NCBI GenBank assembly: GCA_000165345.1 | Contig: CM000435.1 | Location: 352,001 to 416,000 of the forward strand | DNA: 64,000 bases | Direction: 5' to 3' | In this document: positions 14,458 to 54,437 of the stretch, piece after piece | Numbering within the stretch: the stretch's first letter is position 1 | Layout: every line of letters starts with the position of its first letter | Notes under the pieces: model-generated | Seen by the model: the letters and a program-made list of their open reading frames with translations, nothing else | Databases searched by the model: none | Told to the model about the DNA's origin: nothing | Translations under genes and position numbers: made by a program

Positions 14458-14555
14458 TTGCATGTAATACACGTAATGTTTGCATGCTCATTTGCATGTA
14501 TTTGTTTGCATGTGCAAATTGACCACATGCACTGCTGTAACAAATGCCACGTAAC
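14458..14555. promoter_or_regulatory. Dense GCATG x5 plus CACGTAAT/CACGTAAC cluster (likely promoter of the 11648-13840 gene)
   Basis: ttgcatgtaatacacgtaatgtttgcatgctcatttgcatgtatttgtttgcatgtgcaaattgaccacatgcactgctgtaacaaatgccacgtaac. Confidence 0.5.
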
Positions 14556-14908
14556 AATAATCAATTTTCATACTTTAGAATAACAGAGTTCTACTGAAAT
14601 TTTGAAACAAAATTTTTTATTTTTTTTTGAATAGAACAAGTACAATAAAAAATATAAATATACAAAAAATAGTTTAATCACTAACAAGAGCTGGAACTTA
14701 AATTAAGGAGAAGGATGAATAGTTTTTGGAGAGTAATATGATATTTATTAGTTATTATCATTCTGGAGAAGAATCTAATATAAAGAACTAATGTCTCATG
14801 GAATTTTTTAATATTTCAAGGTTAAACGCAATAAATATTTTTCTGATGTTTATAATCAAAACAATTTCATAAGGTTTCATTAATAATCTGATATAAAGTT
14901 GGATTCCT

Positions 14909-16795
14909 TTACTCCAAATTCGTTAAATCACTATTAGAATTATCACAATTTATGTGTGAAGATTGATTTGCAGAAGATTTCGAAGAAGTAGAAGAATAAG
15001 AGGAATTCAAATTCAAGTTATTTTCGCCATCAAGCTTCCAAGAAAGAGCAGACTCAGCAATCTCACGAGTGAGAGATTCCACCCCCGATCCAAGCACTAT
15101 TGATTTCATTCCCAAGACTAATTTGAAAAGTTGTCTTCCAGAAAACCCTTCTGTCTTTCTAGCTAAGACATCCAAAAATGTTTGGTCTAAAGAGGGATGA
15201 ATCTTAATTGAATTATATAATGATGGTAAATTAATAAATTTCCCTGATTCGTAAGAACAATTGAAATTAAGTTCTAGAAATTGCTTAATAAGTTTAAGCC
15301 TTTCATTAAAGCCAGGATTGGGAAATTCAAAAACTTCATCTACCCTATCAATTACAGCACTATCCAAAGTTCCTGGGACATTTGTGGCAAGTAAAATACA
15401 AATATCTTTAGATTCTGTTCCAGTTTGGTGGAGAAAAGCACTGAGCGCATTTCTGGAATTTTCAGATTTACTGGAAGTTGTGGATTCTCTTCCTTTTGAC
15501 AAAAATGCTTCAGCCTCATCAATAAATAGCAGCATTCCCTTATTTGATTTACGAGCCCAATCAAAGACTTTATTTAATTCTGTTACTCCATTTTTTCCTA
15601 GTTTTCCCACATCTCCTCCTGACATTATAGCATAATCCAATCCACTTTCCTTTGCAAGCTTTCTAGCAAACATGGTTTTACCAGTTCCAGGTTTTCCCCA
15701 AAGCAACATATTTCTAAATGGTACATCAAATCTTCTTGAGTTCACCAAAGTATTTACAGTCCAATTTAGTCTATTTTCAAGTTCAGATGGCAATACAATA
15801 TTTTCAAAGACTTTTGGTTTTTTTACTAGTTTATTTCTCAGTCCTAAAAGTCTGAAAGCGATTGCTGGAGAAAAGAAGTTGTTTCTTACTTTTAATCCGT
15901 GTCTTGTTAGAAAACTCATATTGGTTTCCCTGATAAGACTTGGCCTTCCAAAGCTAGTTTCTATCATATTTGCTACTACTCTTGTAGTATTCTTTGCTCC
16001 ATAAATTCCAAAAGCCATTGCTGTTAAGCCTCCAACCAACATTGTAAGCTTTGATTTATCTTGGTATAAAGAGCTCCCCATTTCTCTAATACCTCCAAAA
16101 ATTGTTTTAATTGATTCTAAATGGGTTGTTCTACTTTCTTTTGCTTTGGCTTTAATTTCACCCAATCTTATATCTGCATTCTCTCTCTCAGCTTTAATCC
16201 TTCCAATAGTTTCTTCCCTAATCCTCACTTTAATATTCTCCTGCTGCAGCTTATTCTCATATTCTGATTGCCTTCTTTTCATCTCCAATATTTCTCGTTC
16301 ATTCTTTTTTCTAATCTCTTCCTGTTCCAAAAACTTGTCGTGTTGTTGTTTTAGCATCCTGGCATTCTGGCTTTCTTGTTCTTTCAGCTTTTTGTAGTAT
16401 GCCTCTGTCTCAAGCTTTGCCTTGTATTGGGATGTAGCCCTCTCCTCCTCCTGCTGATGAGTAATTGTTTTTCTTCTCTCATCAGCCTCTATTCGAGTTC
16501 TCTCTAGATTTGCTTTTGACCTATAAGCAGAACTCTGTTCAATATCTCGTTCAAGCTCTTTCTGTTTTGTCTTCTCTTGGAGCTTTATAATTTCAAATGC
16601 TTTTTGCGCATTAGGAGAAGAATCTAATTGTTTCAGAGCTTTTGCTCCTCTCTCCAGAGCTGTTGGGTCAAAGTTTCCATTAATGCTTCCCCCTCCATTC
16701 CCACCCGTATATTTTCCTCCAGAATCTTTATCACCACTTCCAGAATCTGGATTTGGGCTTCCTTGTCTTCCTCCGAATCCACTAAAGAACATCAA
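14909..16795 (-). CDS. ATAD3: ATAD3-family mitochondrial AAA ATPase
   Basis: Gly-rich N-terminus, then NFDPTALERGAKAL (the ATAD3 N-terminal signature). Charged coiled-coil. TM segment LTMLVGGLTAMAFGIYGA. AAA core LLWGKPGTGKTMFARKLA (Walker A) and LLFIDEAEAF (Walker B). An E2F-like TTTGGCGCCAA site sits 40 bp upstream of the ATG. Confidence 0.85.
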   Translation of the reverse strand: MMFFSGFGGRQGSPNPDSGSGDKDSGGKYTGGNGGGSINGNFDPTALERGAKALKQLDSSPNAQKAFEIIKLQEKTKQKELERDIEQSSAYRSKANLERTRIEADERRKTITHQQEEERATSQYKAKLETEAYYKKLKEQESQNARMLKQQHDKFLEQEEIRKKNEREILEMKRRQSEYENKLQQENIKVRIREETIGRIKAERENADIRLGEIKAKAKESRTTHLESIKTIFGGIREMGSSLYQDKSKLTMLVGGLTAMAFGIYGAKNTTRVVANMIETSFGRPSLIRETNMSFLTRHGLKVRNNFFSPAIAFRLLGLRNKLVKKPKVFENIVLPSELENRLNWTVNTLVNSRRFDVPFRNMLLWGKPGTGKTMFARKLAKESGLDYAIMSGGDVGKLGKNGVTELNKVFDWARKSNKGMLLFIDEAEAFLSKGRESTTSSKSENSRNALSAFLHQTGTESKDICILLATNVPGTLDSAVIDRVDEVFEFPNPGFNERLKLIKQFLELNFNCSYESGKFINLPSLYNSIKIHPSLDQTFLDVLARKTEGFSGRQLFKLVLGMKSIVLGSGVESLTREIAESALSWKLDGENNLNLNSSYSSTSSKSSANQSSHINCDNSNSDLTNLE

Positions 16796-16830
16796 AAATC
16801 AATTCCGGACCTTTAACTGTATTCATTGAG

Positions 16831-16841
16831 TTTTGGCGCCA
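16831..16841. promoter_or_regulatory. E2F-like TTTGGCGCCAA, 40 bp upstream of the ATAD3 ATG
   Basis: Exact palindromic core GGCGCC flanked by TTT/AA. Confidence 0.55.
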
Positions 16842-17292
16842 ATATCTATGACTATTAATAGTTTTTTTGTAAAAGGATTTTTGGATTAAATTCTTTTTAT
16901 AAAAATATATTTCAACTTTATTCTTGAACTATTTTAACGAAATCTAGTGGTTAATTAAGTTACTTAAATATTTTTATTCATTTCAAGAACAGGATCTTTA
17001 TTTGAGATTGCAGGTATTTGAACTGGAAAGAGCTTTATAGAACCTTATTTAAATATAAATCTTTAGAAACTCTATGTGTGCAAATATCTAGTTATTTATT
17101 TATAACAACTTTCCACTTACTTTTAGAAAATGGGCTCATGAATTTTCTTCTAATTCTGGATAAATATGGTCAATTCAAATGCAGCATTTTGGCGCCTAAA
17201 CATTTCAATATTCTATAAGAAATTCAAACTGACAAATATTAATCAAGAGGAGTTAACGCAGGTAAATACAAATAGCTAAAGAAGCAGAGATT

Positions 17293-17670: not shown

Positions 17671-17853
17671 CAAAATTAATTAGGCTATTATTTTTTGAAT
17701 TATGTTAAATAAATCAACTAACTTGGATCGACATCTTTTCCTTCAGTACTTTACTTGGATGATTTGGTTTAGGATTAGTAATAGGAAATTGAGATCTCAA
17801 CCTTTTCCTGATCTCAGATTTGATTTTAACCCAACTTAAATGATTTATAAGTA

Positions 17854-19245: not shown

Positions 19246-19371
19246 TTTGTAACAAGTAACTTTGAGAGTGCTGAAGCCCGCGCAGTTTTTGGCAGGAAGC
19301 TCTGGACGGGATTTACCCACAGTGTGAGGAAGAAATAGAAAAGAAAGAGAGAATAACTCGGGAATTGAACA

Positions 19372-21336: not shown

Positions 21337-21630
21337 CTTTTCTATATTTATATGTACATATATAATTACAACTTGACCTTTGTCTCTTGCTTTTTTGCAT
21401 TTATTGCTTCCTCCTTCCCCCCACATGCGAATTCTACTTACATTACGTGTCATCACTTGAAAGTGCATGATTTACGCGCCATATTTACCAACATTTCTAT
21501 TTACCGTTTTTTATTCTCGAAGCACAAATATTAATTTTTTTTTGAGATATCAAAAAAGTTATAGATAGTAAAACTCTGAGTGAAGATGTAAAACCAAGCT
21601 TCAAATTCAAAACTTTCGATTTGATTTGCC

Positions 21631-22740
21631 ATGAGATTTGTTTTTACTAGCGATTATAATGATGATAATTCATTATCCCATAGCTCCTATCTAAATAGGC
21701 CAAATGCATATGGATACTCAAGAAAAGAGTTCAAAGCTCGTTCACTGGAACATTCAAGCAAGACTGCAAAGAGGATTCTTAGTCATATCATTCCTGAGCT
21801 AAGTATTTCCCAATTTAATGAGTCTGTGCGTATTTTTAATGCATATTTGGAGTCCTACAAAAATACACCAAAAAGCATCCCTAGAATAGAATCTCTGATA
21901 TCAGCATCCGCATACATATCAGTTAGAAAGGATGGTGGATACCTTTCACTACTAGATATTGCATCCAGGCTTAAATCCAAAAATTATAGAAGCTTTGCTA
22001 GCCTAATTAAACGAATTTGTACTCGTCTAAGAATTAAGAATCTTCCAAATCCTTCCATTGAAGAGTCTCTAAACCACCTATGTTATAAAGTTGAAAAGTT
22101 TCTCAAAGAAAAGACGATTCAGAATGCAAATGAGCAATACCAAAAGGAAACTATAATTTTCCAAAACCCGGAGAAAGAAACTGATGATATCAGAAATTTA
22201 ATGCTAGATTCTTTAATTAAAGACTCATCCATTGATTTGGAATCCAAAAAGTTGAGAAATTACAATTCAAATCCTGGTTCTTTTTTAAACTCTATGAAAC
22301 ACCTCAAAACTAAAACCGAGGCGAAAACCTCTTTAGATTCTCTCATTAAGGCCAAAAACTTTTCTTTACTTATTCTCAAAACGATTGCCCTTGATCAAGA
22401 TCATGCTTCTTTAAATAACCATGATGACATCCTTAATCCATTATGGCTTTCTAATGGGGTTTCTAGTACTCCCATAATTTCTGCATCATTATACTTTTCG
22501 TTCAAATTATATTGTAGAAATATCTCTTTTAATGATTTACTTAAAGCTACTGGAGTCAGCAAATCATCTATAATCAAAGCCAGAAGATCTCTTTCTCACA
22601 AGCTTAGACTCATTTCTCAGAAACTCTTTCCTGGATGGCTTAGTTCTGATATGCTAAATTGTAATTCTGAATTACCTCCCACTATAATCGAATCACTTAC
22701 TAAATTAATTCAGTCTTACTATTCAAATCTTAAAACATAA
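21631..22740 (+). CDS. Hypothetical protein, possibly a cyclin-fold/TFIIB-core-like repeat protein
   Basis: 369-aa ORF. The segment IESLISASAYISVRKDGGYLSLLDIASRLKSKNYRSFASLIKRICTRLRI follows the TFIIB/cyclin repeat pattern (R..E.L.AA.LY.A.R....S..DIA...K...R.F..I...L). No N-terminal zinc ribbon. CACGTAAT and GCGCGCC motifs lie upstream. Confidence 0.35.
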   Translation: MRFVFTSDYNDDNSLSHSSYLNRPNAYGYSRKEFKARSLEHSSKTAKRILSHIIPELSISQFNESVRIFNAYLESYKNTPKSIPRIESLISASAYISVRKDGGYLSLLDIASRLKSKNYRSFASLIKRICTRLRIKNLPNPSIEESLNHLCYKVEKFLKEKTIQNANEQYQKETIIFQNPEKETDDIRNLMLDSLIKDSSIDLESKKLRNYNSNPGSFLNSMKHLKTKTEAKTSLDSLIKAKNFSLLILKTIALDQDHASLNNHDDILNPLWLSNGVSSTPIISASLYFSFKLYCRNISFNDLLKATGVSKSSIIKARRSLSHKLRLISQKLFPGWLSSDMLNCNSELPPTIIESLTKLIQSYYSNLKT

Positions 22741-28310: not shown

Positions 28311-28400
28311 CACATTACGTGTAAGTAAGTAATGTACATGCATGCATGCGAATGCAAGGTGTTGCAAGCATTTGCATGTGAAGTTGAAATATGTACGTAA
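28311..28400. promoter_or_regulatory. GCATGCATGC / ATTACGTG / GCATGTG cluster upstream of PPIP5K
   Basis: cacattacgtgtaagtaagtaatgtacatgcatgcatgcgaatgcaaggtgttgcaagcatttgcatgtg. Confidence 0.5.
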
Positions 28401-34646: not shown

Positions 34647-34880
34647 ATGATGCACACTAAATTAAAAGTAGGTAAGGTATTATTTAACAAGGAAATTTTT
34701 GACAAGAAGAGAATAGGAAGGTTTTGAGGTGAAGAAGAAAGAAATAATAATAGTGGAGAGGAGTAGATATTTAATTATGGGTGGAGTAGATTAAATTGGT
34801 AAGAAATGATATAGTTTAGAGCAGTAATAAAAAGCTGCATGTATGTATGTATGCATGCATGCATGCAAATAATAGTATTG

Positions 34881-37977: not shown

Positions 37978-38204
37978 TATATGCATGCAAACATTAACCC
38001 GCCAAACCCCCAACCAAACTTTGACTTATAAATTCTTCAGATTTGCATGTAACCAGTTTTACCACGTGTACTAAAAACTTCTTTAAATCAACCCCTCACC
38101 CTATAATGGTCTACCGCCCATTATGTAATTAATTCATTTTTTTTACTTTTATTGCATTTTTAAATAAGTTGGAGGCATACAAATTAGAGCACTTTGGCGC
38201 CAAT
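37978..38204. promoter_or_regulatory. AspRS upstream region: GCATGCAAACA, TGCATGTAACCAGTTTTACCACGTG and TTTGGCGCCAA
   Basis: atgcatgcaaacatt... (37981), tttgcatgtaaccagttttaccacgtgtac (38042-38071), actttggcgccaatt (38191-38205). Confidence 0.55.
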
Positions 38205-45985: not shown

Positions 45986-46073
45986 TCCCAATTTTTTTAT
46001 TCAATTACTTTAAAATTTATTATGTTTTGCCGTTTTTTTAAAAAATTTGCACAATCATATTATAATATTCTTC

Positions 46074-46186
46074 CACATGCAAAACATACTTGCATTACCG
46101 GTACTAAAATTATTCACTGTTAACATTTTCATCCACATGGAAAAAAGTAATTATTGCATGCAATATAAAAATAAATACACGTAATG
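46074..46186. promoter_or_regulatory. CATGCAAAACA / ACCGGT / TTGCATGCAA / CACGTAAT cluster between convergent genes
   Basis: ccacatgcaaaacatacttgcattaccggtact...attattgcatgcaatataaaaataaatacacgtaatgac. Confidence 0.4.
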
Positions 46187-46296: not shown

Positions 46297-46620
46297 TTAC
46301 TTTACATTTGCTAATTTTAGAATTGCTTCCTCATTCTTAAGCTCTAAATCTCTAGTGATGTACTCGAAGTCTCGTTTAATGTCGAAATTATAATCTCTTT
46401 CCAATGGAACCTGTTGAAAAGCAATGATTTAAAATAAATAGTTGAAAAAAAAAATCAAAAAGGTTCATCAATAACTTACCACGTCGTTAAGCTCGCAATC
46501 AATCTTCTCTTCCTGAATCTTCAACAACACCTTCTGAAACTTGGTTGTGGATTCCTCAGAAGTCATGAAACACCTACTTCTTGGCTTATAATTTTTAAAA
46601 ACCAAGTTTTCTTCTTTCAT
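46297..46620 (-). CDS. CCDC12-like small spliceosome-associated protein, two exons
   Basis: Exon 1 46480-46620 and exon 2 46297-46410, with a 69-nt intron and a GTAAGT donor. The product MKEENLVFKNYKP...ELNDVVPLERDYNFDIKRDFEYITRDLELKNEEAILKLANVK matches CCDC12 blocks (RNYVP ... LAPRKPDWDLKRDVAKKLEKL). TTGGCGCCAAAT lies 50 bp upstream. Confidence 0.5.
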
Positions 46621-46665: not shown

Positions 46666-46677
46666 TTGGCGCCAAAT
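46666..46677. promoter_or_regulatory. E2F-like TTGGCGCCAAAT in the divergent spacer between the CCDC12-like gene and RNase Z
   Basis: Exact match to cagagttggcgccaaatatg. Confidence 0.55.
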
Positions 46678-46813: not shown

Positions 46814-49279
46814 ATGTCTGAGATACACTTCCAACGTATTGGGTCCAAACATCTTCTCTCCCCTCCATCTTTAGTACTTACATATAATGGAAATAAGTGT
46901 TTAATTAATGTTGGTGAAAATGTACAAAGATACTGCTTTGAACATAAAATCAGGCTTTCTAGATTAAGAAATATTCTTCTAACTAATATATCTGTTGAAA
47001 CTATTGGAGGTCTTCCAGGTCTTCTTCTTACATTAATAGGAGTTGGGGTTCAAAAGCTCAGAATTGTGGGGCCAGAACCCATAACTCGTTACTTAATTAT
47101 GTTTGGATATATAATTAGAACTCAGAAAAAGTATGAAAACTCTATAAACACTGTTGTATCTATTAATTCACAAGAATTTCTGGATAACTTTGATGGGATA
47201 AAATCCGATCTAGAAATTGAGATTATTGAGTTAATGCCATCTTCTTCTTCTGAGCCACTCAAACTTGAATTAGATCATGAACTTTTTCTTGAATGCTATC
47301 TAAATCATTCCTTTTCAGGATCTCAGACTTGTTTGGATTTTGAACATAATCAAATTCCAAACTCCAAAAAAAGATGTACCGAAAACTATTTATCTTGTTT
47401 ATCAAATCTATCCATATTGTACATGTTTGAGTTTCCAGAAAAAAGAGGAAAGTTTGATGTTATTAAAGCTAAAGAACTTGGTATTCCTCCAGGTCCTCTA
47501 TATTCCAAACTAAAGAATGGAGAAAGCGTACAAATTTCTGAATCAAGAATTATCCAGCCTAGTGATGTTTGCTCTCCCCCCATCAAGCTACCCTGGTCAA
47601 TCATTTTTCATACCCTAGATCCAACCGAGTTTGACTTCTTCTACTTTAGAATCTCTCAAATTCTCAAATTAAAAGGATTTGATTTAACTGAAACAGCTCA
47701 AAATTCTAGTAATTGCTCAAGTGAACAATACGAATCTTGTTCAAACTTTTATATATTCGAATTCCAAGCTTGTTTTGACTCTTTTTTAGACTTTAATAAC
47801 AATTTCTTAAAGCTTGATTCTTGCTTTATCCAAAATAAGTGTTATCTATCTAAAGGAACTATTAATGTTATAAGGCTAAATGAAAGATTAAATTTACTCA
47901 AAGATCAAGAAATTAACCCTTTTGTGACTTCTCAATTTCTTCAAGAGTTCCTAAGCCATATCTCCCCCAATCTATTTCCTTTACCATCAGCTAAAGTTGA
48001 TGAGTTTACTTGGAACCAACAGTTTTTCATATCATCAAACCAAAAATCTCTTCAAAATACTAACTCCATTGCAAATATACACAAAAAAAAAGCAAAGTTT
48101 GCTCCAATTTCACAAGAATCCGATGATCAAATCTTATTCCTAAAACAAGAATTTCAAGATATTTTTTCCAATTATATAGAAAACAATGAAAAAACACTTT
48201 TTCCTCTTTTATATGTTCTTGGAACAGGATCTGCAATTCCCTCGCCATATAGAAATGTCTCTGGTTACCTTTTACGTCTCGACGATAATACGAGCATGAT
48301 GCTAGACTGTGGGGAAGGCTCTATGTCCCAGCTTTTCATTCTTTGCAAGTTTGATTTTGACTTATTTTCAAAAATTATTGCTTCAATTAAGATCATTTTT
48401 ATTTCTCATCCCCATGAAGACCATTTTTTGGGTATTTTCAACCTTTTAAAACTAAAAAACTCTATCAATATTCAACAAAAAGTTGAAAATAGCTCTGAAT
48501 TAGTCAAAAATGACAATTTCTATCACATAAAATATGATGAAAACCTCCAAAGAGTCCAAGAAGTTTATTTTAATAATGAAATTAAAAGCAAGGATTTTAA
48601 GAACTTGTTAATTATTGGACCAAGAAAGGTAGAAAAGTTATACAATTTATTCCAAGAGAAAATTATACAAGACAAAGGAAATAGAATTAGAAATTGCGAA
48701 ATTTCTTTTATAGCTATAGAAAAGAGAATTAATAAAAGCTTTGATAAAATATCAGATCAAAGCAAACTGGTATTAGATGATTTCTTCTTAAAGCTTGAAC
48801 AATTCCCTGTTAAACATATAAAATCTTCTTATGGAGTAAAAGTAACATTTAAGCTTGAAAATAGTTTGAAAATTAGGGATGGTTATTCATTATTCAAAAT
48901 TGTATTTTCAGGAGATACTGCTACTCCATGTACATCTTTGGAATATGCATCAAAAGACTGTGATATCTTAATACATGAAGCAACTTTTGAGGATAGTTTA
49001 TCCAAAGATGCTCAAGAAAAGAATCATTCAACCATTTCTGGAGCAATAGGAACAGCTTATAATAGTTTAGCAAAGTTCCTTTTACTAACTCACTTTAGTC
49101 AAAGATACTTTAGCATGCCAAAAGTTGAAATGAAGAATGAGGATTTAAAGAGATACTTTTTAAATAACACGCTCTGTATGATGGATTTAATGATAATACC
49201 TTTAAAAATGGTGGGGAAATTAATAGAAAGATTCCACAATTTGAATGATTTAATTAGAGATTATTTGCCACAAGTTTAA
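46814..49279 (+). CDS. tRNA 3'-processing endonuclease RNase Z, long form (ELAC2-like)
   Basis: N-terminal pseudo-domain plus C-terminal metallo-beta-lactamase domain. Motifs LGTGSAIPSPYRNVSGYLL, HxHxDH (FISHPHEDHFLGI) and THFSQRY. Confidence 0.8.
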   Translation: MSEIHFQRIGSKHLLSPPSLVLTYNGNKCLINVGENVQRYCFEHKIRLSRLRNILLTNISVETIGGLPGLLLTLIGVGVQKLRIVGPEPITRYLIMFGYIIRTQKKYENSINTVVSINSQEFLDNFDGIKSDLEIEIIELMPSSSSEPLKLELDHELFLECYLNHSFSGSQTCLDFEHNQIPNSKKRCTENYLSCLSNLSILYMFEFPEKRGKFDVIKAKELGIPPGPLYSKLKNGESVQISESRIIQPSDVCSPPIKLPWSIIFHTLDPTEFDFFYFRISQILKLKGFDLTETAQNSSNCSSEQYESCSNFYIFEFQACFDSFLDFNNNFLKLDSCFIQNKCYLSKGTINVIRLNERLNLLKDQEINPFVTSQFLQEFLSHISPNLFPLPSAKVDEFTWNQQFFISSNQKSLQNTNSIANIHKKKAKFAPISQESDDQILFLKQEFQDIFSNYIENNEKTLFPLLYVLGTGSAIPSPYRNVSGYLLRLDDNTSMMLDCGEGSMSQLFILCKFDFDLFSKIIASIKIIFISHPHEDHFLGIFNLLKLKNSINIQQKVENSSELVKNDNFYHIKYDENLQRVQEVYFNNEIKSKDFKNLLIIGPRKVEKLYNLFQEKIIQDKGNRIRNCEISFIAIEKRINKSFDKISDQSKLVLDDFFLKLEQFPVKHIKSSYGVKVTFKLENSLKIRDGYSLFKIVFSGDTATPCTSLEYASKDCDILIHEATFEDSLSKDAQEKNHSTISGAIGTAYNSLAKFLLLTHFSQRYFSMPKVEMKNEDLKRYFLNNTLCMMDLMIIPLKMVGKLIERFHNLNDLIRDYLPQV

Positions 49280-52200
49280 ACAAACCAAAACACAATCTTT
49301 ATTTTTCTTTGAATCATCGCTTTCAACAATCATACAATCCCAGACATCATAATCTTCAATGATAATTCTTCGGATAAATCCGTTATGTGTTTTTTCTCCA
49401 AGATTATAACTAACTTTAAAGCTGCTTTTTTCTGTAATTTCTTTAATTGATGACTTGAAAATATCCTCTCTAATGATATAAAATGGAGTAGTAGGTCTAA
49501 AATTAAAGATTTCAAAACTCCTTCTTTGCAAATGGCTTAATCTTCCAGCAGGAAGTCCATTATTTTGAGTAATCAAGTCTAATGGTAGGATTAGTGATAT
49601 ATATCTTGTCTCATTTTGAGATTCTTGATCGTAACTTAAGTTCTTTTTAATAAATGTCTCACGGGACTCAGCAATAGTAAAAGTAGAATCTGCAATCATA
49701 GCATCCCTGTAGGAGTTTGACAGGTTATTATTTTTGATTCTATTAGAAGTTCTTTTTCTCGAAAAGTGTTCAATATTGAGATGCTGAATGTTTTCAAAGC
49801 TTTCCTTCAAATTATCTACTAACTCAACAAGCTCATCTGTACAAGATGAATTTAAACGAGGAGTAACCTGGCAATTAATTAAAATGAAAGGGTAAATAGT
49901 GACTTCATTATCTTCTTGGGTGTTGTTGTTAGAGTCAATTTCAGCTGACTGATTATTATTGGCTAGATTCCCTACATTGTAACATATATTCATAACTTTG
50001 ATTTTCTCAATATTTGCCATATGAGCAGGTATTTCAGTGAATTTTTCAATAAATCTAAGCATTGCACCATTTACTTTTCTATTTTTTGTTAAAATTGAAT
50101 TCATCCAAGAAAGATTAACCAAGAAATGCCCAGATTTGAAATAATAGAATTGATCCATTTGATCTGGAATTTGTTTCTCAATATAATCAAGTTTTTTTTC
50201 ATAATTCTTTCCAATAATGGAAATAAACTCTTCTTTATTATAGACAAAACCACTTCTAGAAGTAAGAATTGAGTCTTGGTTAAAGCCTGATAGTTCATAA
50301 CTTATACTTCCTCCAGTAGAAATAGTAATCAAATCACTAGGAACAATACTTTGCATCCATATTTTCAAATAAGCAGCAATGATTGAGATTCTCTTATTGA
50401 AAGAGGATGTAATAATATCTCCCAAAGGAATTTGAGTTTCTCCTTCAGGAGGATGAATACCACCTAAAGCATCCAACTCCCGTATCCACAAAGAATGCTT
50501 CTGAGATGTTTGTTTATCTAATTGAATGCCAAATGTTTCAAGAGAATCCATTGTAGTTTCGCAAATTTGCTTAATCAAAATAGTTATTTGCTTGAAGGTT
50601 TCTTGTGATGAATAGTATGTAACATCCACTCCTTTAGTAAATTGGCCAAATACTTGAGTAGATAGAGCAAAGATTTTGTCTAAGATTGAAAAATGAGTTT
50701 GAGTGTCATTATTGGCGCAAACAACCATAGGAAGGGTGATTTTAAGATAAATAGTTGTGATTTCCTTTATTATGTTTATGACAGAGAAATAAAAGAACTG
50801 TTTTTCTTGATCAATCCTGAGCAGTGATATGTTAAAAGGAACAAAAACTGGCTTGTTATTGCCAATACATTCTTGTACATATTTAGCAGAATTGAATGTT
50901 TCATGCTCAAACTCTTTTCCATTGAATGCGCTTTTTAGCTTAAGTTTCAGTTGGAACTCACAAAAATGATCTTCACAAAGAGAATTGATCAATGTTTCTA
51001 TCTCTTTCTTCTTACTCACAAACTTATAGTTTGGCTCGGTAGATTTAACCACAGGCTTTGATGAGATTGTTGCTGAGGTTGAATTCAATCTCAAAAAGTT
51101 TTGAATTTCAGCAACTTCTGGAGTAGAAACCAAATTATAAGGTAAGTTTCCTTCAGCTGATAAAGTACATAGAGGATTTGTGCAAGGAGTGGAATGAGAG
51201 ATATATTTATTGTTAAGACCTTCCATACAACTTGAAACAATAATGACCGATTTATATAATGTATTTTGTGTATTTATATTATTAAACAAAAAGTACTTGT
51301 TAGAGAATCGATCCACACCAATAAAATTATCATTTCTCCCAATGTTGATCTTCTTTTTCTGACTATTAAATGCATTATCAATGAATTCTTTGCCTATCTT
51401 TCCACTTCCAAGAGTATCAATCGACCAATTTAGAATTTCAAAGAACGATTCACTATTTAAAGCGCATAAGGAGTTGTTTTTGTCTTGTTTTTTTGATTGA
51501 GACGGTGAGTTTTGATTTGGTGTAATATCGCAAGATTCCATTTTTGTTTCTTCTACTATTAACTGTTCCCCACTATTATAATCATCAAAAGTACTTTCGT
51601 CCAAATAGTCACTAAGTTCATTCATACTAGACTCGTTCATCTTTGCAAGGAGCAAATCCAAAATTACAGGCCAAGATACGCAATCAATAGAGGATTTATT
51701 GATACTTAAAGTATCCAAAAGTTTAAGTTTGATTTCAGAACTCTTTAAATCAGACTCTGAATCAGAATGCTCGGAGTCATTTCTAAATGAAGAGTAACTT
51801 CTTTTGATGCTTGGACTGGTTTTTACTGTTTGGCTGGAATCTTCTGTATTATTTTTCTTTAAGTTAAAAACTTTCTCAGAAATGGCATTAACAAGGCACT
51901 TAATTGTCGAAAATAATGTGTTTTGAGGAAAAGCCTGAACTACTTTAATCAAACTACAAAGTCCTTCTTGACTAATTAAACCAGAAGCTCTTTCTTCTCT
52001 TAATTTTCCAATAACTTTGTTCAGTTCCAAATATACTTGATTTAAAATTTCCAGTGAAATGCATTTTGATTTTTCCAGAACAAAACTCTTTGATTGGAAT
52101 GACTGAATACTAAGTAGTGAACTTGAATAAATCGGTAATTCTAAGAAATCACCAAATGAGTGACAGAAGTCCGAAATCTTGAGTATTTTCTGACAAGTCC

Positions 52201-53626
52201 CGAAGCTATCAGTGAAGTCCTTGAACTTGACTAAAGCAAATTTAAGAGAATCTTCACCCTTATTAACAGAACTTCGTCTTCTCTTTAAATTATTAGCAGT
52301 TGTAGCACATGTTACTGAACTTGCTTGTAGCTTATTACTAGTGAAAATCTTCTCTGAAAGTTCATTGTTCTGTAACAAGCTATTAATATTTGAGCTTATA
52401 TAGCTTTCATCCAAAGTAGGGTCTTCACTTAATATCATTTTTGTGAGTTTATTTTTCATTGACGTAATTATCTGAAGTCCCAAAGTTTTGGATAGATTAT
52501 ACTTTTTCGAGTAAGTTTGTAAATAAAACTCAATGAAGGGAAACATCAACAAAACCTCTTTCTCAGATAATCCAGCAACAAATAAAGGCTCACCCCATGC
52601 AGTTGTAGACTGATCCACAGAAGGATTTGTATCCTTGCAAGCTTTCTTAGTTGGACTTGAAGTCTCGCTAGCAGGCTCTGGGCTCATTTCAGGAATCTGT
52701 TCGGAAGTTTGCTCCTCAGTTTGCTGCTTTGAAACTGGTTTATTAGATGATTTGTCAACCAATTTCCCAGTAACCTGATCAAGGAAAGTCTTGTATCCAA
52801 TTCTATTTGAGTTTGGAGAAAGTAAAGTCTTAATAAGTCTTGAAATAACTTCAAACTTGACCTTTGCAGATGAAAATAACTTGACGTATTTGCTTGCTGG
52901 CCAACACAGCCTATAGCAAGTTTTTGTGCTTCTATTTTCAGACATACTATTGACCCATATATGTGGTGTATCAAACAGATTACCTCCAAATTCAATAGTC
53001 CAAGAATGTATTTTACAAGTAATCTGGAAAGTCTTCAAGTCTCCCTGCTTTAAAATTGACTTTGGCATTTCCTTCATCTTTTTTGGCTTGTAACTTCCCC
53101 CACCTTTTTGGCGAATTCTCTGTAACTTCCTAAAGTTGTCTTTAAGAATATTAGTCTTTTCTTTCTCATAATTTAAAATATATTCAAAAGGGATCAAAGT
53201 ACCAACAAGAGTTAGTTCTTCAAAACTTTGATCATCTTGTGATTTCTCTGTGGCTCCCATATAATTCGAATCAACATTCACTTCAGGATCTGCTGCCTTT
53301 ACAAAAGAATCAAGGGTTCCCTCCTCATTCATAAAATAAATACTTTCAAATTTATTTGGTAAACAGTCTAAGGGCATCATCCTGGAAAGTTTGTTATTGT
53401 ATATCGAAAACTCTGCAATGTATCTATAAGTAATACCATAGTCTCCGCTCAATGTTACCTCTTCTGGAATATCATCTTCAGATGTTAACTCATGTTTAAG
53501 CTTAAAGGCTCCTCCCTCACTTGTATTACTTGACAAACTTGAACGCTTCTTTTTGTTGAAATTCTTACTATTGCTACTACTACTACTAGTATTATTCTCA
53601 TTCAAATTCGAATTTAAGCATGCCAT
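49250..53626 (-). CDS. Hypothetical large protein (1458 aa)
   Basis: Uninterrupted ORF. An in-frame TAA lies about 25 codons upstream of MACLN, so this Met is the likely start. The 3' end overlaps the RNase Z stop by 30 bp (convergent). The short stretch RKLQRIRQKGGGSYKPKKMKEMP faintly resembles the TAF1 segment just before its zinc knuckle, but no knuckle is present. Confidence 0.5.
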   Translation of the reverse strand: MACLNSNLNENNTSSSSSNSKNFNKKKRSSLSSNTSEGGAFKLKHELTSEDDIPEEVTLSGDYGITYRYIAEFSIYNNKLSRMMPLDCLPNKFESIYFMNEEGTLDSFVKAADPEVNVDSNYMGATEKSQDDQSFEELTLVGTLIPFEYILNYEKEKTNILKDNFRKLQRIRQKGGGSYKPKKMKEMPKSILKQGDLKTFQITCKIHSWTIEFGGNLFDTPHIWVNSMSENRSTKTCYRLCWPASKYVKLFSSAKVKFEVISRLIKTLLSPNSNRIGYKTFLDQVTGKLVDKSSNKPVSKQQTEEQTSEQIPEMSPEPASETSSPTKKACKDTNPSVDQSTTAWGEPLFVAGLSEKEVLLMFPFIEFYLQTYSKKYNLSKTLGLQIITSMKNKLTKMILSEDPTLDESYISSNINSLLQNNELSEKIFTSNKLQASSVTCATTANNLKRRRSSVNKGEDSLKFALVKFKDFTDSFGTCQKILKISDFCHSFGDFLELPIYSSSLLSIQSFQSKSFVLEKSKCISLEILNQVYLELNKVIGKLREERASGLISQEGLCSLIKVVQAFPQNTLFSTIKCLVNAISEKVFNLKKNNTEDSSQTVKTSPSIKRSYSSFRNDSEHSDSESDLKSSEIKLKLLDTLSINKSSIDCVSWPVILDLLLAKMNESSMNELSDYLDESTFDDYNSGEQLIVEETKMESCDITPNQNSPSQSKKQDKNNSLCALNSESFFEILNWSIDTLGSGKIGKEFIDNAFNSQKKKINIGRNDNFIGVDRFSNKYFLFNNINTQNTLYKSVIIVSSCMEGLNNKYISHSTPCTNPLCTLSAEGNLPYNLVSTPEVAEIQNFLRLNSTSATISSKPVVKSTEPNYKFVSKKKEIETLINSLCEDHFCEFQLKLKLKSAFNGKEFEHETFNSAKYVQECIGNNKPVFVPFNISLLRIDQEKQFFYFSVINIIKEITTIYLKITLPMVVCANNDTQTHFSILDKIFALSTQVFGQFTKGVDVTYYSSQETFKQITILIKQICETTMDSLETFGIQLDKQTSQKHSLWIRELDALGGIHPPEGETQIPLGDIITSSFNKRISIIAAYLKIWMQSIVPSDLITISTGGSISYELSGFNQDSILTSRSGFVYNKEEFISIIGKNYEKKLDYIEKQIPDQMDQFYYFKSGHFLVNLSWMNSILTKNRKVNGAMLRFIEKFTEIPAHMANIEKIKVMNICYNVGNLANNNQSAEIDSNNNTQEDNEVTIYPFILINCQVTPRLNSSCTDELVELVDNLKESFENIQHLNIEHFSRKRTSNRIKNNNLSNSYRDAMIADSTFTIAESRETFIKKNLSYDQESQNETRYISLILPLDLITQNNGLPAGRLSHLQRRSFEIFNFRPTTPFYIIREDIFKSSIKEITEKSSFKVSYNLGEKTHNGFIRRIIIEDYDVWDCMIVESDDSKKNKDCVLVCLNLWQIISN

Positions 53627-54397
53627 ATTTACATCTTCCCCATAGCTGTTATTTTCATAATAGATCTGGTTGTTGTATAANNTGCCCGAACTAAATTATT
53701 TCATTGAAGTNNTTCTCATTTTCTCGAGGGAAAACGTAATCAGGAATAGCATCCTCCTCCATTCTAAACTGGTTATCTTTCTTCATTATAAATAGGATCG
53801 GAAAGCTTCATAGAAATCTCAAAAGAATCCATCGTACTGCCACAATCAATATTTGAAGACATTTTCCCCCATCAACCTTTTAACCTCTATTAATATTAAT
53901 TAATAAATGTGAATATTAATTAAATTTCAGCTTCTATAAAGGCTATACTATTCTTAATACCAAAATACTTTGTACTTCGTTTCTTATATGCTTTTTACTA
54001 AGATCCCAAAAACATACATATGCATTTATAAATGTATATTTAATGTTAATTAAAACTATACTTCAATTCCATCAACACCAATAATTTTGAGGAGTAACTA
54101 GATTTAACACAAAATTTAAATTGTGAAGAATCTAACTAAGTCTGTGTTTTTACTCCTTATTTTTTCTTGGTTCTCAAAAAACTTTAATCCATATACCTTT
54201 GACTTTTTTGCCAAGCAACCTATTCTCCTCCCACGGCGCTTACATGACTAGACAAACTTAAATAGTAAGTAATATTCAAATTAACTTGATATTGTTCTTT
54301 TTTTTAAAAAAAAAAAAAAAAGGATATAATTACCTCTTTCAAAAACTTATTTTTTTAAAAATTTTGCACCTATGTTTCATAGCTACTTTAATTACAC

Positions 54398-54437
54398 TAC
54401 GTGGAACCAGTTACATGCATGCAAACACGTGTTGAGT
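54398..54437. promoter_or_regulatory. ACGTGGAACCAGTTACATGCATGCAAACACGTG composite element
   Basis: It shares ACCAGTT plus GCATGCAAACA plus CACGTG with the AspRS upstream element. About 800 bp upstream of the 1458-aa gene. Confidence 0.5.

What the first reader, a model, noticed from the sequence alone, without database searches (positions are those of the whole stretch)
14458..54437. Recurring composite intergenic element: GCATGCAAACA + ACCAGTT + CACGTG/CACGTAAT + ACCGGT
The same short words keep appearing together in spacers. GCATGCAAACA occurs at 8333, 37983 and 54416, with a variant at 46076. ACCAGTT sits immediately next to a GCATG at 38051 and 54407. The ACCGGT palindrome occurs at 8345, 13994, 46106 and 61114. 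The octamer CACGTAAT occurs exactly seven times on either strand (1392, 4137, 13972, 14470, 21443, 28315, 46178), every time in non-coding DNA, against about two expected for this base composition. This looks like a combinatorial promoter code with two or three cooperating factors, richer than the known GCATGCA and E2F motifs alone.
Basis: seen in the sequence. Interest (0 to 1): 0.55.

Follow-up and report, generated by a model that had tools for sequence, protein, structure and literature searches.

The report
Conserved ACGT-core promoter motif beside TGCATGCA
In this stretch of Cryptosporidium parvum chromosome 7, the spacers between genes carry small clusters of conserved protein-binding words: the known TGCATGCA and E2F sites plus a barely described third word, ATTACGTGT. 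That third word is kept at the same places in at least four other Cryptosporidium species and probably marks the binding site of an unidentified regulator.

Summary
The window is C. parvum chromosome 7 (about cgd7_1340-1650).

Real parts:
- CACGTAAT (= ATTACGTG) occurs 8 times against 0.47 expected. Seven copies lie in the 26% of the window that is non-coding.
- It is the best non-E2F, non-TGCATGCA, non-poly(A) 8-mer.
- Its core [T/C]ACGTG lies within 30 bp of a TGCATG in 8 of 11 spacer sites (0.9 expected).
- ACGTG-N9-19-GCATG occurs 5 times against 0.04 expected.

Conservation:
- The same word sits at orthologous positions in chipmunk genotype I, C. ubiquitum, C. canis and partly C. felis.
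- TTACGTGT is the top word in an unbiased 8-mer footprint screen.
- 84% of ACGT-motif positions are identical in two other species, against a 33% background. This equals E2F sites (80%).
- ACCGGT is weakly enriched but conserved (79%).

Not real:
- ACCAGTT is not enriched in spacers (4 spacer, 8 coding copies) and not conserved (14%).
- CACGTG alone is not enriched.
- The "AAACA" tail of GCATGCAAACA is mostly a linker to the next motif.

Best reading: compact cis-regulatory modules combining ApiAP2 (TGCATGCA), E2F and an unassigned ACGT-core site, possibly for a bZIP. Main-text motif catalogues omit it; only a supplementary FIRE hexamer hints at it. It is a new member of a known kind.

The parts
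14459..14554 (-). Distal module upstream of cgd7_1400 (ORF 11648-13840, minus strand). It holds ATTACGTGT (14469-14477, minus), TTACGTGG (14547-14554, minus) and five or six TGCATG/GCATGC/CATGCA sites, including GCATGCAAAC abutting ATTACGTG.
   Evidence: Sequence. TTACGTGGCAT is kept in C. ubiquitum, C. canis and C. felis. ACGTG-N17-GCATG was hit, and the orthologous composites in L009, L010 and L011.
13972..14032 (-). Proximal module about 130-190 bp upstream of the cgd7_1400 ATG. It holds ATTACGTGT(GGGTAAAT) at 13971-13979, E2F-like GCGCGCC at 13993-13999, ACCGGT at 14009-14014 and CATGCA at 14027-14032.
   Evidence: The whole block 'ACCGGT.TGCAATC.AGCGCGCA...AAGATTACGTGTGGGTAAAT' is kept in C. 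ubiquitum and C. canis. The instances are fully conserved.
21442..21480 (+). Module about 150-190 bp upstream of cgd7_1450 (ORF 21631-22740). It reads ATTACGTGT (21442-21450), a 13-nt spacer (15 nt from the ACGTG core to GCATG), TGCATG (21464-21469), a 5-nt spacer, then the E2F-like CGCGCC (21475-21480).
   Evidence: The arrangement and the 15-nt ACGTG-to-GCATG gap are the same in C. ubiquitum and in C. canis, where the site reads TTACGTGT. C. felis has TGACGTAAT on the other side of the E2F site.
28314..28349 (+). Module about 120-150 bp upstream of the PPIP5K-like ORF (28465-31509). It reads ATTACGTGT (28314-28322) followed by CATGCATGCATGC (28337-28349).
   Evidence: 'TGTCCACATTACGTGT' is kept in chipmunk genotype I, C. 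ubiquitum and C. canis, in each case followed within 12-18 nt by a TGCATG site. C. felis has CCACATGACGTTT.
37982..38203 (+). Promoter region of the Asp/Asn-tRNA synthetase gene (ATG 38384). It holds TGCATGCAAACA (37982-37993), TGCATG (38044-38049), a non-conserved ACCAGTT (38052-38058), CACGTGT (38063-38069) and the E2F site TTGGCGCCAA (38194-38203).
   Evidence: TGCATG(CA)-N11-15-CACGTGTA is kept in chipmunk genotype I and C. canis; C. ubiquitum has CACGTATA. Neither ACCAGTT nor the AAACA tail is kept.
46073..46185 (-). Block B. It holds CCACATGCA (46073-46081), (A)CCGGTACTAAA (46097-46107), TCCACATG (46132-46139), TGCATGCA (46155-46162), a 15-nt spacer and CACGTAAT (46178-46185; the motif reads ATTACGTGT on the minus strand).
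   Evidence: The motif cores are invariant in a five-species alignment that includes C. felis; C. ubiquitum has lost the CACG. The block lies in a convergent spacer between the stop of the 127-aa gene (45985) and the stop of cwf18 (about 46298). No conserved RNA fold.
54398..54467 (.). Module about 770-840 bp upstream of the 1458-aa ORF (49250-53626, minus strand). It holds TACGTGG (54398-54404), a non-conserved ACCAGTT (54406-54412), CATGCATGCA (54414-54423), the palindrome ACACGTGT (54424-54431) and CCACATG (54461-54467).
   Evidence: 'TTGTCCACATG...ACACGTGT-T-TGCATG(CA)' is kept in C. canis and in a further Cryptosporidium sp. (L013). The TACGTGG and ACCAGTT part is not kept.
8330..8383 (.). 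Block G. It reads TGCATGCA (8330-8337), AAC, ACCGGT (8341-8346), CATGCA (8350-8355) and TGCATGCA (8376-8383).
   Evidence: Kept in C. ubiquitum and C. canis; C. felis has ACCGGC. The block lies inside the 106-nt intron of a conserved small two-exon minus-strand gene.
1392..1399 (+). A single ATTACGTG(A) site in the divergent spacer 816-2234. It is 170 bp from the nearest GCATGC.
   Evidence: No orthologous sequence was obtained, so its status is open.
4137..4144 (-). A single ATTACGTG(A) site (CACGTAAT on the plus strand) in spacer 3444-4987. It is 117 bp from TGCATGCA at 4018 and from the E2F site at 4040.
   Evidence: The C. parvum spacer is 1544 bp against 426 bp in C. ubiquitum, so this part cannot be aligned.
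61113..61131 (+). ACCGGT (61113-61118), a 3-nt spacer, then TTTGGCGCCAA (61121-61131), just upstream of the RsmB-like methylase ORF (ATG 61179).
   Evidence: The E2F site is kept. ACCGGT is only partly kept: ACCGGC in C. canis and absent in L013.

Best explanation
The recurring words are transcription-factor binding sites packed into short, evolutionarily conserved cis-regulatory modules in the compact intergenic DNA of Cryptosporidium parvum.

Each module combines two known site types with a third, distinct site. The known types are ApiAP2 'AP2_1' sites (TGCATGCA and half-variants such as TGCATGT and CCACATG) and, in several modules, E2F/DP sites (TTGGCGCC, GCGCGCC). The third site has an ACGT core. 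Its consensus is A-T-[T/C]-ACGTG-T, that is ATTACGTGT, with the palindromic variant ACACGTGT/CACGTGT. ACCGGT is probably a fourth, rarer site.

The ACGT-core site usually lies 10-18 nt (mode 15) from a TGCATG, or directly beside it (2-6 nt). This fits two proteins bound close together.

Inferred, not shown: the ACGT-core site is read by a sequence-specific dimeric factor. The most likely candidate is the single non-CCAAT bZIP listed for C. parvum. It would act together with a TGCATGCA-binding ApiAP2 to set the expression of the adjacent gene, or of an antisense transcript where the module lies in a convergent spacer.

ACCAGTT and the exact GCATGCAAACA 11-mer are not elements in their own right.

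My confidence that these are conserved functional cis-regulatory sites with a distinct ACGT-core member is about 0.7. My confidence that the reader of the site is a bZIP is about 0.35.
For: Shown in the window:
1. CACGTAAT occurs 8 times against 0.47 expected. Seven copies are in 16.5 kb of spacers and one in 47.5 kb of ORFs.
2. It ranks 11th of all 8-mers in spacers. Every word above it is E2F, TGCATGCA-family or poly(A). The Bonferroni-corrected P is 3e-5 under an order-1 model and 0.02 under an order-3 model.
3. The core ACACGT/ACGTGT occurs 10 times in spacers and 0 times in ORFs.

Replicated in syntenic loci of other species:
- C. ubiquitum: 4 non-coding and 1 coding copy (0.11-0.14 expected).
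- C. canis: 5 and 0 (0.16-0.21 expected).
- Chipmunk genotype I: 2 and 0.

Conservation:
- In an unbiased screen of C. parvum spacer 8-mers kept on the same strand in the orthologous spacer of both C. ubiquitum and C. canis (background 5.5%), TTACGTGT was the top word with 3 spacers. TGGCGCCA and TGCATGCA had 2 each.
- In MAFFT alignments of 18 spacers (9,902 positions), 33% of positions are identical in both other species. The values for motif positions are 84% for the ACGT motif, 80% for E2F, 79% for ACCGGT, 62% for TGCATG and 14% for ACCAGTT.
- Per instance, TTACGTG is fully conserved in 4 of 6 cases against a 4.4% background (P = 5e-5). ACGTGT is fully conserved in 5 of 8 cases (P = 2e-5).

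Co-occurrence:
- 8 of 11 spacer [T/C]ACGTG sites lie within 30 bp of TGCATG/GCATGC. Random placement gives 0.9, and no permutation out of 20,000 reached 8.
- ACGTG-N9-19-GCATG occurs 5 times against 0.04 expected. It recurs at the orthologous places in seven loci of four species.
- The gaps cluster at 10-18 nt.

- The site has an ACGT core with hybrid half-sites (TTAC|GT, ACAC|GT) and a fully palindromic variant, ACACGTGT.
- At two of the orthologous places C. felis has CRE-like TGACGTAAT and ATGACGTT instead.
- Oberstaller 2013, Table 2, lists one 'other' bZIP in C. parvum.

Independent genome-wide hint: FIRE reported CACGTA/TACGTG in 4 expression clusters. Two of them (39 and 42) also carry the CATGCA motif (Supplementary Table S3 of PMC3734150).
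Against: - There are no binding, expression or transcription-start data for these sites.
- Enrichment was measured on 64 kb plus about 190 kb of syntenic loci, not on the whole genome.
- Positions within one motif are not independent, so the Fisher P values overstate significance. The per-instance tests are the safer numbers.
- Block B lies in a convergent spacer and block G in an intron, so not every module is a classical upstream promoter.
- Two ATTACGTGA sites (1392 and 4137) are far from any TGCATG and could not be checked in other species.
- The motif is absent from the syntenic loci of C. bovis and C. muris, where TGCATGCA and TTGGCGCC are also not enriched.
- ATAC-seq peaks of sporozoites were reported to be enriched only for E2F and poly-T motifs (bioRxiv 10.1101/2025.01.17.633476).
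- The gap to TGCATG is constrained but not fixed. It ranges from 12 to 18 nt at one orthologous site, and the order of the two sites differs between loci (spacer C against A, B and F).
- The bZIP assignment rests on resemblance only. About a third of the C. parvum AP2 domains gave no PBM motif and remain candidates.
Confidence: 0.7

Rival explanations
1. The ACGT-core site is read by an ApiAP2 protein rather than a bZIP. The modules would then be pure AP2-plus-E2F arrays, with two different AP2 specificities side by side.
For: ApiAP2 is the dominant DNA-binding family in the phylum. Several predicted C. parvum AP2 domains (cgd6_5320 D1-D4, cgd4_1110 D2, cgd6_1140) gave no PBM motif, and 5 of the 15 domains with a motif bind something other than TGCAT, CACACA or the G-box; the main text does not spell those motifs out (PMC4117751). 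7 of 9 orientable sites point towards the downstream gene (my tabulation), which suits a monomeric, asymmetric reader.
Against: The main text of the PBM paper contains no ACGT-containing motif string, and none of its supplementary files is held as text here. The palindromic variant ACACGTGT and the C. felis CRE-like replacements TGACGTAAT and ATGACGT are more typical of a dimeric bZIP.
Confidence: 0.25
2. [quoted passage not shown] That is how the FIRE hexamer was filed in 2013.
For: In Supplementary Table S3 of PMC3734150, CACGTA/TACGTG is listed under Motif 2. One instance overlaps a G-rich word: ATTACGTGTGGGTAAAT at 13963-13979.
Against: None of the 12 oriented C. parvum instances contains a GGGG run, and only one carries GTGGG. 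The conserved core is ACGTG with A-T-T on the 5' side. This has no similarity to G[T/C]GGGG.
Confidence: 0.07
3. The words act at the RNA level, as UTR or intron elements bound by an RNA-binding protein or forming a structure, rather than as DNA sites.
For: There is an orientation bias towards the downstream gene (7 of 9). One block lies in an intron and one in a 3'-3' spacer that is probably transcribed.
Against: Both strands are used. Palindromic variants exist. The partner words TGCATGCA and E2F are established DNA sites. Block B has no conserved secondary structure (consensus energy -0.16 kcal/mol). The window has no Rfam match at gathering thresholds.
Confidence: 0.08
4. The pattern is chance or a composition artefact of AT-rich spacers, or the relic of a dispersed repeat or mobile element.
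For: The words are short. ACCAGTT, CACGTG and the exact 11-mer do behave like chance or lineage-specific matches.
Against: 0 of 100 shuffles reached the observed CACGTAAT count. The word survives Bonferroni correction over all 8-mers. It is replicated in other species and conserved at orthologous positions. No repeat family covers the modules, and similarity between modules does not extend beyond the 6-10 nt words.
Confidence: 0.03
5. CACGTAAT marks 5' splice donors (CAC|GTAAT) of unannotated first introns.
For: GTAAT and GTAAGT resemble the donor consensus. At 28314 the word is followed by GTAAGTAAGT. Some 'spacers' do hide introns.
Against: The strand is wrong for the downstream gene at all five sites whose nearest downstream gene is clear (13972, 14470, 21442, 28314 and 4137). 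The GTAAGT at 28322 is not kept in other species, whereas ATTACGTGT is.
Confidence: 0.02

Closest known systems
AP2_1 motif (BGCATGCAH / TGCATGCA) of Cryptosporidium and other Apicomplexa, bound in vitro by the AP2 domain of cgd2_3490 and three further C. parvum AP2 proteins (PMC3734150; PMC4117751)
   Same: The TGCATGCA, GCATGC and TGCATG components of every module are this motif. It is strongly enriched in spacers (10 copies against 0.1-1.0 expected) and partly conserved.
   Different: It does not account for the ACGT-core word or for ACCGGT. The AAAC(A) tail is not conserved. In 3 of 5 cases it is simply the linker to the next site: AAAC-ATTACGTG, AA-ACACGTGT and AAAC-ACCGGT.
E2F/DP sites (TTGGCGCC, TTTGGCGGGAAA), the most abundant upstream motif of C. 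parvum (PMC3734150; PMC12246861)
   Same: E2F or E2F-like sites are present in modules E-proximal, F, C and U. They are enriched and conserved to the same degree as the ACGT-core word.
   Different: In this window E2F sites do not cluster with TGCATG (1 of 13 within 30 bp, P = 0.67), whereas the ACGT-core word does.
FIRE hexamer CACGTA/TACGTG in Supplementary Table S3 of Oberstaller et al. 2013 (clusters 39, 42, 45 and 83; Z = 6; robustness 6/10)
   Same: It has the same core hexamer, was found genome-wide upstream of co-expressed genes, and two of the four clusters also carry the CATGCA motif.
   Different: It was filed under the G-box-like 'Motif 2'. It is not among the 25 consensus motifs of Table 1 or the motif families of the 2025 review. 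The extended consensus ATTACGTGT/ACACGTGT, the pairing with TGCATG and the cross-species conservation are not described there.
ACGT-core elements read by bZIP dimers: plant G-box/ABRE (CACGTG, ACGTGT/G), CRE (TGACGTCA), PAR/E4BP4 sites (TTACGTAA) and UPRE-type sites (TGACGTG). This comparison is from general knowledge, not tested here.
   Same: The site has an ACGT core, hybrid half-sites TTAC|GT and ACAC|GT, a palindromic variant ACACGTGT, and CRE-like replacements in C. felis. It would work like a hybrid A/G-box.
   Different: No bZIP was examined. Binding is untested. Most instances are asymmetric, and the flanking A-T at positions -2 and -1 is unusually fixed.
E-box or hypoxia-response element (CACGTG; TACGTG) read by bHLH and bHLH-PAS proteins. 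This comparison is from general knowledge.
   Same: TACGTG and CACGTG are the cores of these elements.
   Different: CACGTG itself is not enriched. As far as I know, apicomplexans have no bHLH factors; this was not tested here.

Membership tests
AP2_1 (TGCATGCA) ApiAP2 binding motif | Palindromic GCATGC core, over-represented in non-coding DNA of C. parvum | tested here: met
   TGCATGCA occurs 10 times in spacers against 0.12-0.94 expected and 2 times in ORFs. GCATGC occurs 14 times against 1.0-3.6 expected.
AP2_1 (TGCATGCA) ApiAP2 binding motif | Bound by AP2 domains (cgd2_3490 and others) in protein-binding microarrays | not testable with these tools
   Taken from the literature only (PMC4117751).
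E2F/DP site | TTGGCGCC or [C/G]GCGC[G/C] core enriched upstream of genes | tested here: met
   TTGGCGCC occurs 16 times in spacers against 0.06-2.7 expected. Conservation is 80% of positions.
bZIP-type ACGT-core element (for the ATTACGTGT / ACACGTGT word) | Invariant ACGT core flanked by two half-sites | tested here: met
   ACGTG is invariant in 12 of 12 oriented spacer instances. The half-sites are TTAC or CAC on the 5' side and GT(G/T) on the 3' side.
bZIP-type ACGT-core element (for the ATTACGTGT / ACACGTGT word) | Dyad symmetry, or a hybrid of known half-sites | tested here: inconclusive
   The palindrome ACACGTGT at 54424 is conserved in three species. Most sites are the asymmetric ATTACGTGT. 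C. felis has TGACGTAAT and ATGACGTT at two orthologous places.
bZIP-type ACGT-core element (for the ATTACGTGT / ACACGTGT word) | Bound by a bZIP dimer encoded in the same genome | not testable with these tools
   The literature lists one non-CCAAT bZIP in C. parvum (PMC3734150, Table 2). No binding data exist there, and the protein is not in this window.
G-box-like Motif 2 of Oberstaller 2013 (DTGTGGGG; G[T/C]GGGG) | A run of at least four G (or C) after TGT | tested here: not met
   None of the 12 instances has GGGG. Only 13971-13979 continues into GTGGGTAA.
Canonical E-box (CACGTG) | The CACGTG hexamer is itself the enriched, conserved word | tested here: not met
   CACGTG occurs twice in spacers and twice in ORFs against 0.4-1.0 expected. 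Position 0 of the motif is T in 9 of 12 instances.
Dispersed repeat or mobile-element relic | Similarity between copies that extends well beyond the short words | tested here: not met
   No repeat family covers the modules. The spacers between ACGTG and GCATG are unrelated in sequence.
Structured non-coding RNA gene (for blocks B and G) | A match to an Rfam family, or a conserved fold with covariation | tested here: not met
   Rfam gave 0 hits at gathering thresholds. RNAalifold on the five-species block B alignment gave -0.16 kcal/mol and one compensatory pair. Block G was not folded.

The most novel reading that the evidence does not exclude
An unassigned DNA-binding factor, perhaps the orphan bZIP of Cryptosporidium, reads ATTACGTGT/ACACGTGT. 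It acts as an obligate partner of a TGCATGCA-binding ApiAP2 and binds 10-18 nt away, about 20 bp centre to centre. Together they form a composite enhancer that is specific to the intestinal Cryptosporidium clade (C. parvum through C. felis) and absent from the C. bovis and C. muris lineages. The same composite also fires antisense or non-coding transcripts from convergent spacers and introns. This would add a third regulatory axis to what is currently described as an E2F-plus-AP2 system.
Probability: 0.25. Interest if true: 0.65.

Novelty: new member of a known kind. Interest (0 to 1): 0.5.

Why it matters
Gene regulation in Cryptosporidium, a leading cause of childhood diarrhoea, is currently described almost entirely in terms of E2F/DP and ApiAP2 sites. 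The published lists contain several 'unknown' motifs but no ACGT-core word (PMC3734150 Table 1; PMC12246861 Table 3).

In this window ATTACGTGT/ACACGTGT is as conserved as E2F sites and is tied physically to TGCATGCA. That points to a concrete, testable partner factor. It also gives short, defined sequences to mutate with the existing CRISPR and reporter tools.

If the pattern holds genome-wide, it would improve promoter models and help assign a function to one of the few non-AP2 transcription factors. It could also explain why AP2_1 sites alone predict expression poorly.

The work trims the original claim as well. ACCAGTT and the 11-mer GCATGCAAACA should not be pursued.

Tried and rejected
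- Splice-donor reading of CAC|GTAAT. Rejected because the strand is wrong at the five sites with a clear downstream gene and the GTAAGT at 28322 is not conserved.
- Non-coding RNA gene for the very conserved block B. Rfam gave 0 hits and there is no conserved fold.
- Dispersed repeat or mobile element. No repeat family covers the modules.
- ACCAGTT as a motif. It has 8 of 12 copies in ORFs, 14% positional conservation and 0 of 3 instances conserved. I noted that AACCAGTT and AACTGGTT are one transition away from AACCGGTT, but this stays speculation.
- CACGTG as an independent E-box. It is not enriched and is better seen as the C-variant of [T/C]ACGTG.
- GCATGCAAACA as an extended AP2 site. It is enriched (4 copies against 0.03 expected) but 0 of 4 instances are conserved as a 10-mer.
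- Link between the ACGT word and E2F sites. None was found (2 of 11 within 60 bp, P = 0.59).
- Expression clusters. I tried to place the genes downstream of the sites in the 2013 clusters. The held supplement is truncated, and cgd7_1400, cgd7_1500 and cgd7_1540 were not found. cgd7_1450 is in cluster 22 and none is in clusters 39 or 42.
- Literature searches for CACGTAAT, TACGTG or ACGTGT together with Cryptosporidium returned only PCR-primer papers.
- No supplementary files of the PBM paper are held as text.
- Pfam on the small intron-containing gene and on neighbouring unknown ORFs gave nothing useful.

Full report
**Source and annotation.** The window has 32.8% G+C. The ORF at 36447-37661 is 100% identical to the ART-4/NOB1 protein of Cryptosporidium parvum, and orthologues exist in nine other Cryptosporidium species. 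Gene names in the supplement of Oberstaller et al. 2013 fix the place on chromosome 7: cgd7_1410 (AAA/ATAD3, 14909-16792), cgd7_1450, cgd7_1460 (RPS27), cgd7_1490 (TrpRS), cgd7_1530 (ART-4), cgd7_1560 (DHHC) and cgd7_1630 (SUN-family methylase). Using ATG-started ORFs, 16.5 kb (26%) of the window is non-coding. Some 'spacers' hide small or spliced genes, as described below.

**Checking the observation.** All the words exist, with small coordinate errors.
- GCATGCAAACA is at 8331, 37983 and 54417, plus a missed minus-strand copy at 14477. That is 4 copies against 0.03 expected.
- ACCAGTT is at 38052 and 54406 beside GCATG. It occurs 12 times in all against 6.75 expected, and 8 copies are in ORFs.
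- ACCGGT is at 8341, 14009, 46097 and 61113, plus 2282 and 5059 in ORFs. That is 6 copies against 1.68 expected.
- CACGTAAT occurs 8 times, not 7. The extra copy (33349) is inside an ORF. The expectation is 0.47, not about 2.
- CACGTG occurs twice in spacers and twice in ORFs, and is not enriched.

**Is it more than chance?** I ranked every 6-, 7- and 8-mer in the spacers against order-1 and order-3 Markov expectations. ATTACGTG has 7 spacer copies against 0.18 and 0.47 expected. It ranks 11th of all 8-mers, and every word above it belongs to the E2F family, the TGCATGCA family or poly(A). It survives Bonferroni correction over 32,896 words (3e-5 and 0.02). Its core ACACGT/ACGTGT occurs 10 times in spacers and never in 47.5 kb of ORFs. 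ACCGGT is marginal (4 copies against 0.6-0.8 expected, rank 68 of 6-mers). ACCAGTT is unremarkable (rank 520).

**Related sequences.** I fetched syntenic loci of about 21 kb around three anchor genes:
- NOB1, in C. ubiquitum, chipmunk genotype I, C. felis, C. canis, C. bovis and C. muris.
- cgd7_1400, in C. ubiquitum, C. canis and C. felis.
- Mrt4, in C. canis and an unnamed Cryptosporidium sp. from a public read set.

Gene order is conserved. The enrichment of ATTACGTG in non-coding DNA is repeated in C. ubiquitum (4 non-coding and 1 coding copy; 0.11-0.14 expected), C. canis (5 and 0; 0.16-0.21 expected) and chipmunk genotype I (2 and 0). C. felis has one copy. C. bovis and C. muris have none, and these two also lack TTGGCGCC and nearly lack TGCATGCA in these loci.

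**Conservation at orthologous positions.** Reading the spacers side by side shows the word kept in place while the surrounding DNA drifts:
- 'TGTCCACATTACGTGT' lies upstream of the PPIP5K gene (28314) in four species.
- 'TTACATTACGTGTCA-N-AAGTGCATGATTTGCGCGCC' lies upstream of cgd7_1450 (21442) in C. parvum and C. ubiquitum. C. canis keeps the same arrangement with TTACGTGT.
- 'ACCGGT.TGCAATC.AGCGCGCA...AAGATTACGTGTGGGTAAAT' lies upstream of cgd7_1400 (13972) in three species.
- 'TTACGTGGCAT' (14548) is present in four species.
- 'TGCATGCA-N15-CACGTAAT' (46155-46185) is present in four of five species, including C. felis with 45% G+C.
- 'TGCATG(CA)-N11-15-CACGTGTA' lies upstream of the Asp/Asn-tRNA synthetase gene (38063) in C. 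parvum, chipmunk genotype I and C. canis. C. ubiquitum has CACGTATA.
- 'ACACGTGT-T-TGCATG(CA)' (54416-54431, read on the minus strand) is present in three species.

**Quantifying the conservation.**
- Unbiased screen. I took C. parvum spacer 8-mers retained on the same strand in the orthologous spacer of both C. ubiquitum and C. canis (background 5.5%). TTACGTGT came first with three spacers, ahead of TGGCGCCA and TGCATGCA with two each.
- Per position. In MAFFT alignments of 18 spacers (9,902 C. parvum positions, two other species each), 33% of positions are identical in both. The figures are 84% for ACGT-motif positions, 88% for ATTACGTG, 80% for E2F, 79% for ACCGGT, 74% for CCACATG, 62% for TGCATG/GCATGC and 14% for ACCAGTT. 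Positions within one site are not independent.
- Per instance. TTACGTG is fully conserved in 4 of 6 instances against a 4.4% background (P = 5e-5). ACGTGT gives 5 of 8 (P = 2e-5), GGCGCC 5 of 7, ACCGGT 2 of 4 (P = 0.016), ACCAGTT 0 of 3 and GCATGCAAAC 0 of 4.

**Co-occurrence and spacing.** Of 11 spacer [T/C]ACGTG sites, 8 lie within 30 bp of a TGCATG/GCATGC. Random placement within the spacers gives 0.9, and none of 20,000 permutations reached 8. ACCGGT gives 3 of 4 (P = 0.002). E2F sites show no such association. The pattern ACGTG-N9-19-GCATG occurs 5 times against 0.04 expected, and the opposite order occurs once, at the palindromic CACGTG of 38063. The same composite is found at the orthologous places in seven loci of four other species and not in C. 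bovis or C. muris. The gaps fall in two groups, 10-18 nt (mode 15) and 2-6 nt. The gap is identical (15 nt) in three species at 21445 and varies from 12 to 18 nt at 28317.

**Anatomy of the word.** Twelve oriented C. parvum spacer instances give A (11 of 12), T (8 of 12), T or C (9 and 3), ACGTG (invariant) and T (8 of 12). The consensus is ATTACGTGT, with the variant (A)CACGTGT, whose full form ACACGTGT is a perfect palindrome.

These are AAAC-ATTACGTG at 14470, AA-ACACGTGT at 54424 and AAAC-ACCGGT at 8341.

The two copies are reverse complements of each other, and both lie between ACGTGG and ACATGC. Neither is kept in any other species examined.

**What is known.** TGCATGCA (AP2_1) and E2F are well documented. 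The 25 consensus motifs of Oberstaller et al. 2013 (Table 1) and the motif table of a 2025 review contain no ACGT-core word. The main text of the ApiAP2 PBM paper has none either. Full-text searches for the word together with Cryptosporidium returned only primer sequences.

Supplementary Table S3 of the 2013 paper does list a FIRE hexamer CACGTA/TACGTG for clusters 39, 42, 45 and 83 (Z = 6, robustness 6 of 10), filed under the G-box-like Motif 2. Clusters 39 and 42 also carry the CATGCA motif. The core hexamer was therefore seen genome-wide but never treated as a separate element. That observation is independent support for a link with AP2_1.

The same paper lists one bZIP that is not a CCAAT-binding factor. 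Sporozoite ATAC-seq peaks were reported to be enriched only for E2F and poly-T motifs. Antisense lncRNAs start near the 3' ends of genes and carry E2F or AP2_1 motifs upstream (PMC7840661).

**Most likely mechanism.**
- Shown: a distinct, enriched, conserved ACGT-core word that is physically tied to TGCATG sites in short conserved modules, mostly 120-320 bp upstream of a start codon. Some lie 630-840 bp upstream.
- Inferred: these are transcription-factor binding sites. The ACGT-core word is read by a dimeric factor of the bZIP type. The grounds are the ACGT core, the hybrid half-sites TTAC|GT and ACAC|GT, the palindromic variant, and the CRE-like TGACGTAAT and ATGACGTT found at two orthologous places in C. 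felis. The constrained distance to TGCATG would reflect joint occupancy with a TGCATGCA-binding ApiAP2.
- An ApiAP2 of still unknown specificity is the main alternative reader.

**Open points.**
- Block B (46073-46185) lies between the stop of the 127-aa gene cgd7_1570 and the stop of a cwf18 orthologue on the other strand. It is therefore not an upstream region of either neighbour. It has no conserved RNA fold and no Rfam hit. A promoter for an antisense transcript, or a distal element of the tRNase Z gene 630 bp away, would explain it.
- Block G (8330-8383) lies in the 106-nt intron of a conserved, apparently unannotated 59-aa gene.
- The ATTACGTGA sites at 1392 and 4137 could not be checked in other species.
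- All enrichment figures come from one 64-kb window and its syntenic counterparts.

**Verdict.** The valuable core is the ACGT-core motif ATTACGTGT/ACACGTGT and its pairing with TGCATGCA. ACCGGT is a plausible minor partner. ACCAGTT, CACGTG as such and the 11-mer should be dropped. This is a new, or at least never properly described, member of a known kind of element: a promoter-type binding motif. Interest is moderate.

Noticed in passing
window 8215-8500 (minus strand): A conserved small two-exon gene that ORF scanning missed. The ATG is at 8500, exon 1 is 8500-8419, the 106-nt intron is 8418-8313 (GTAAGT...TTTCAG), and exon 2 runs to about 8215. The product is 59 aa (MLSFEVIEFELSNIVKTVENNILNWSKGNLENRE...). 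Exon 1 and the donor are kept in C. ubiquitum, C. canis and C. felis. There is no Pfam hit. The TGCATGCA/ACCGGT block lies inside its intron.
   Followed up: partly
window about 46298-46620 (minus strand): A cwf18 orthologue of about 84 aa with one intron lies in what ORF scanning called a spacer. It is annotated in C. ubiquitum (L003 19681-20000). An E2F site at 46666-46675 lies between its ATG and the tRNase Z ATG (46814), which looks like a bidirectional promoter.
   Followed up: partly
L007 (C. bovis) and L008 (C. muris), whole loci: The syntenic loci of these two species have no TTGGCGCC, no ATTACGTG and 0-1 TGCATGCA in non-coding DNA. The five species from C. parvum to C. felis are rich in all three. 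The upstream motif vocabulary may differ between Cryptosporidium lineages.
   Followed up: no
window 14523, 21421, 46073, 46133, 54461 and others: CCACATG is another enriched spacer word (7 copies against 0.5 expected). It is conserved at 74% of positions and often lies a few tens of bp from the ACGT-core site, for example TGTCCACATTACGTGT and TTGTCCACATG. It may be an AP2_1-like half-variant.
   Followed up: partly
window 13963-13971 and 19313-19321: TGTGGGTAA is kept in both C. ubiquitum and C. canis in two different spacers. In one of them it directly abuts ATTACGTG. It may be related to the published G-box-like motif.
   Followed up: no
window 53627-54925: The uracil-DNA glycosylase gene (ORF 54926-55561, minus strand) continues through an intron into this 'spacer'. 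The coding-like sequence is conserved in L013. Eight N bases lie here, at 53681, 53682, 53711, 53712, 54864, 54920, 54922 and 54967.
   Followed up: no
window 38051-38058 and 54405-54412: AACTGGTT and AACCAGTT are reverse complements of each other. Both lie between ACGTGG and ACATGC, only in C. parvum. They are one transition away from AACCGGTT, which contains ACCGGT.
   Followed up: partly
window 34852-34867: A (TGCA)4 run gives three overlapping TGCATGCA sites just 3' of a spliced TPR gene that ORF scanning missed. The gene is annotated in C. ubiquitum, C. canis and C. felis. TGCATGCA is present at the equivalent place in C. ubiquitum, chipmunk genotype I and C. canis.
   Followed up: no
window 9355-10371 (minus strand) and 10520-11521 (plus strand): A divergent pair of SbmA/BacA-like membrane protein genes (Pfam PF05992, E = 2e-38 and 5e-49) is separated by only 148 bp.
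   Followed up: no
window 49250-49279: The tRNase Z-like ORF (46814-49279, plus strand) and the 1458-aa ORF (49250-53626, minus strand) overlap by 30 bp at their 3' ends.
   Followed up: no
window 3444-4987: This spacer is 1544 bp in C. parvum but 426 bp in C. ubiquitum. The extra part carries its own cluster of E2F sites (3818, 4040), TGCATGCA (4018) and CACGTAAT (4137). That suggests an unannotated transcript or a lineage-specific insertion.
   Followed up: no
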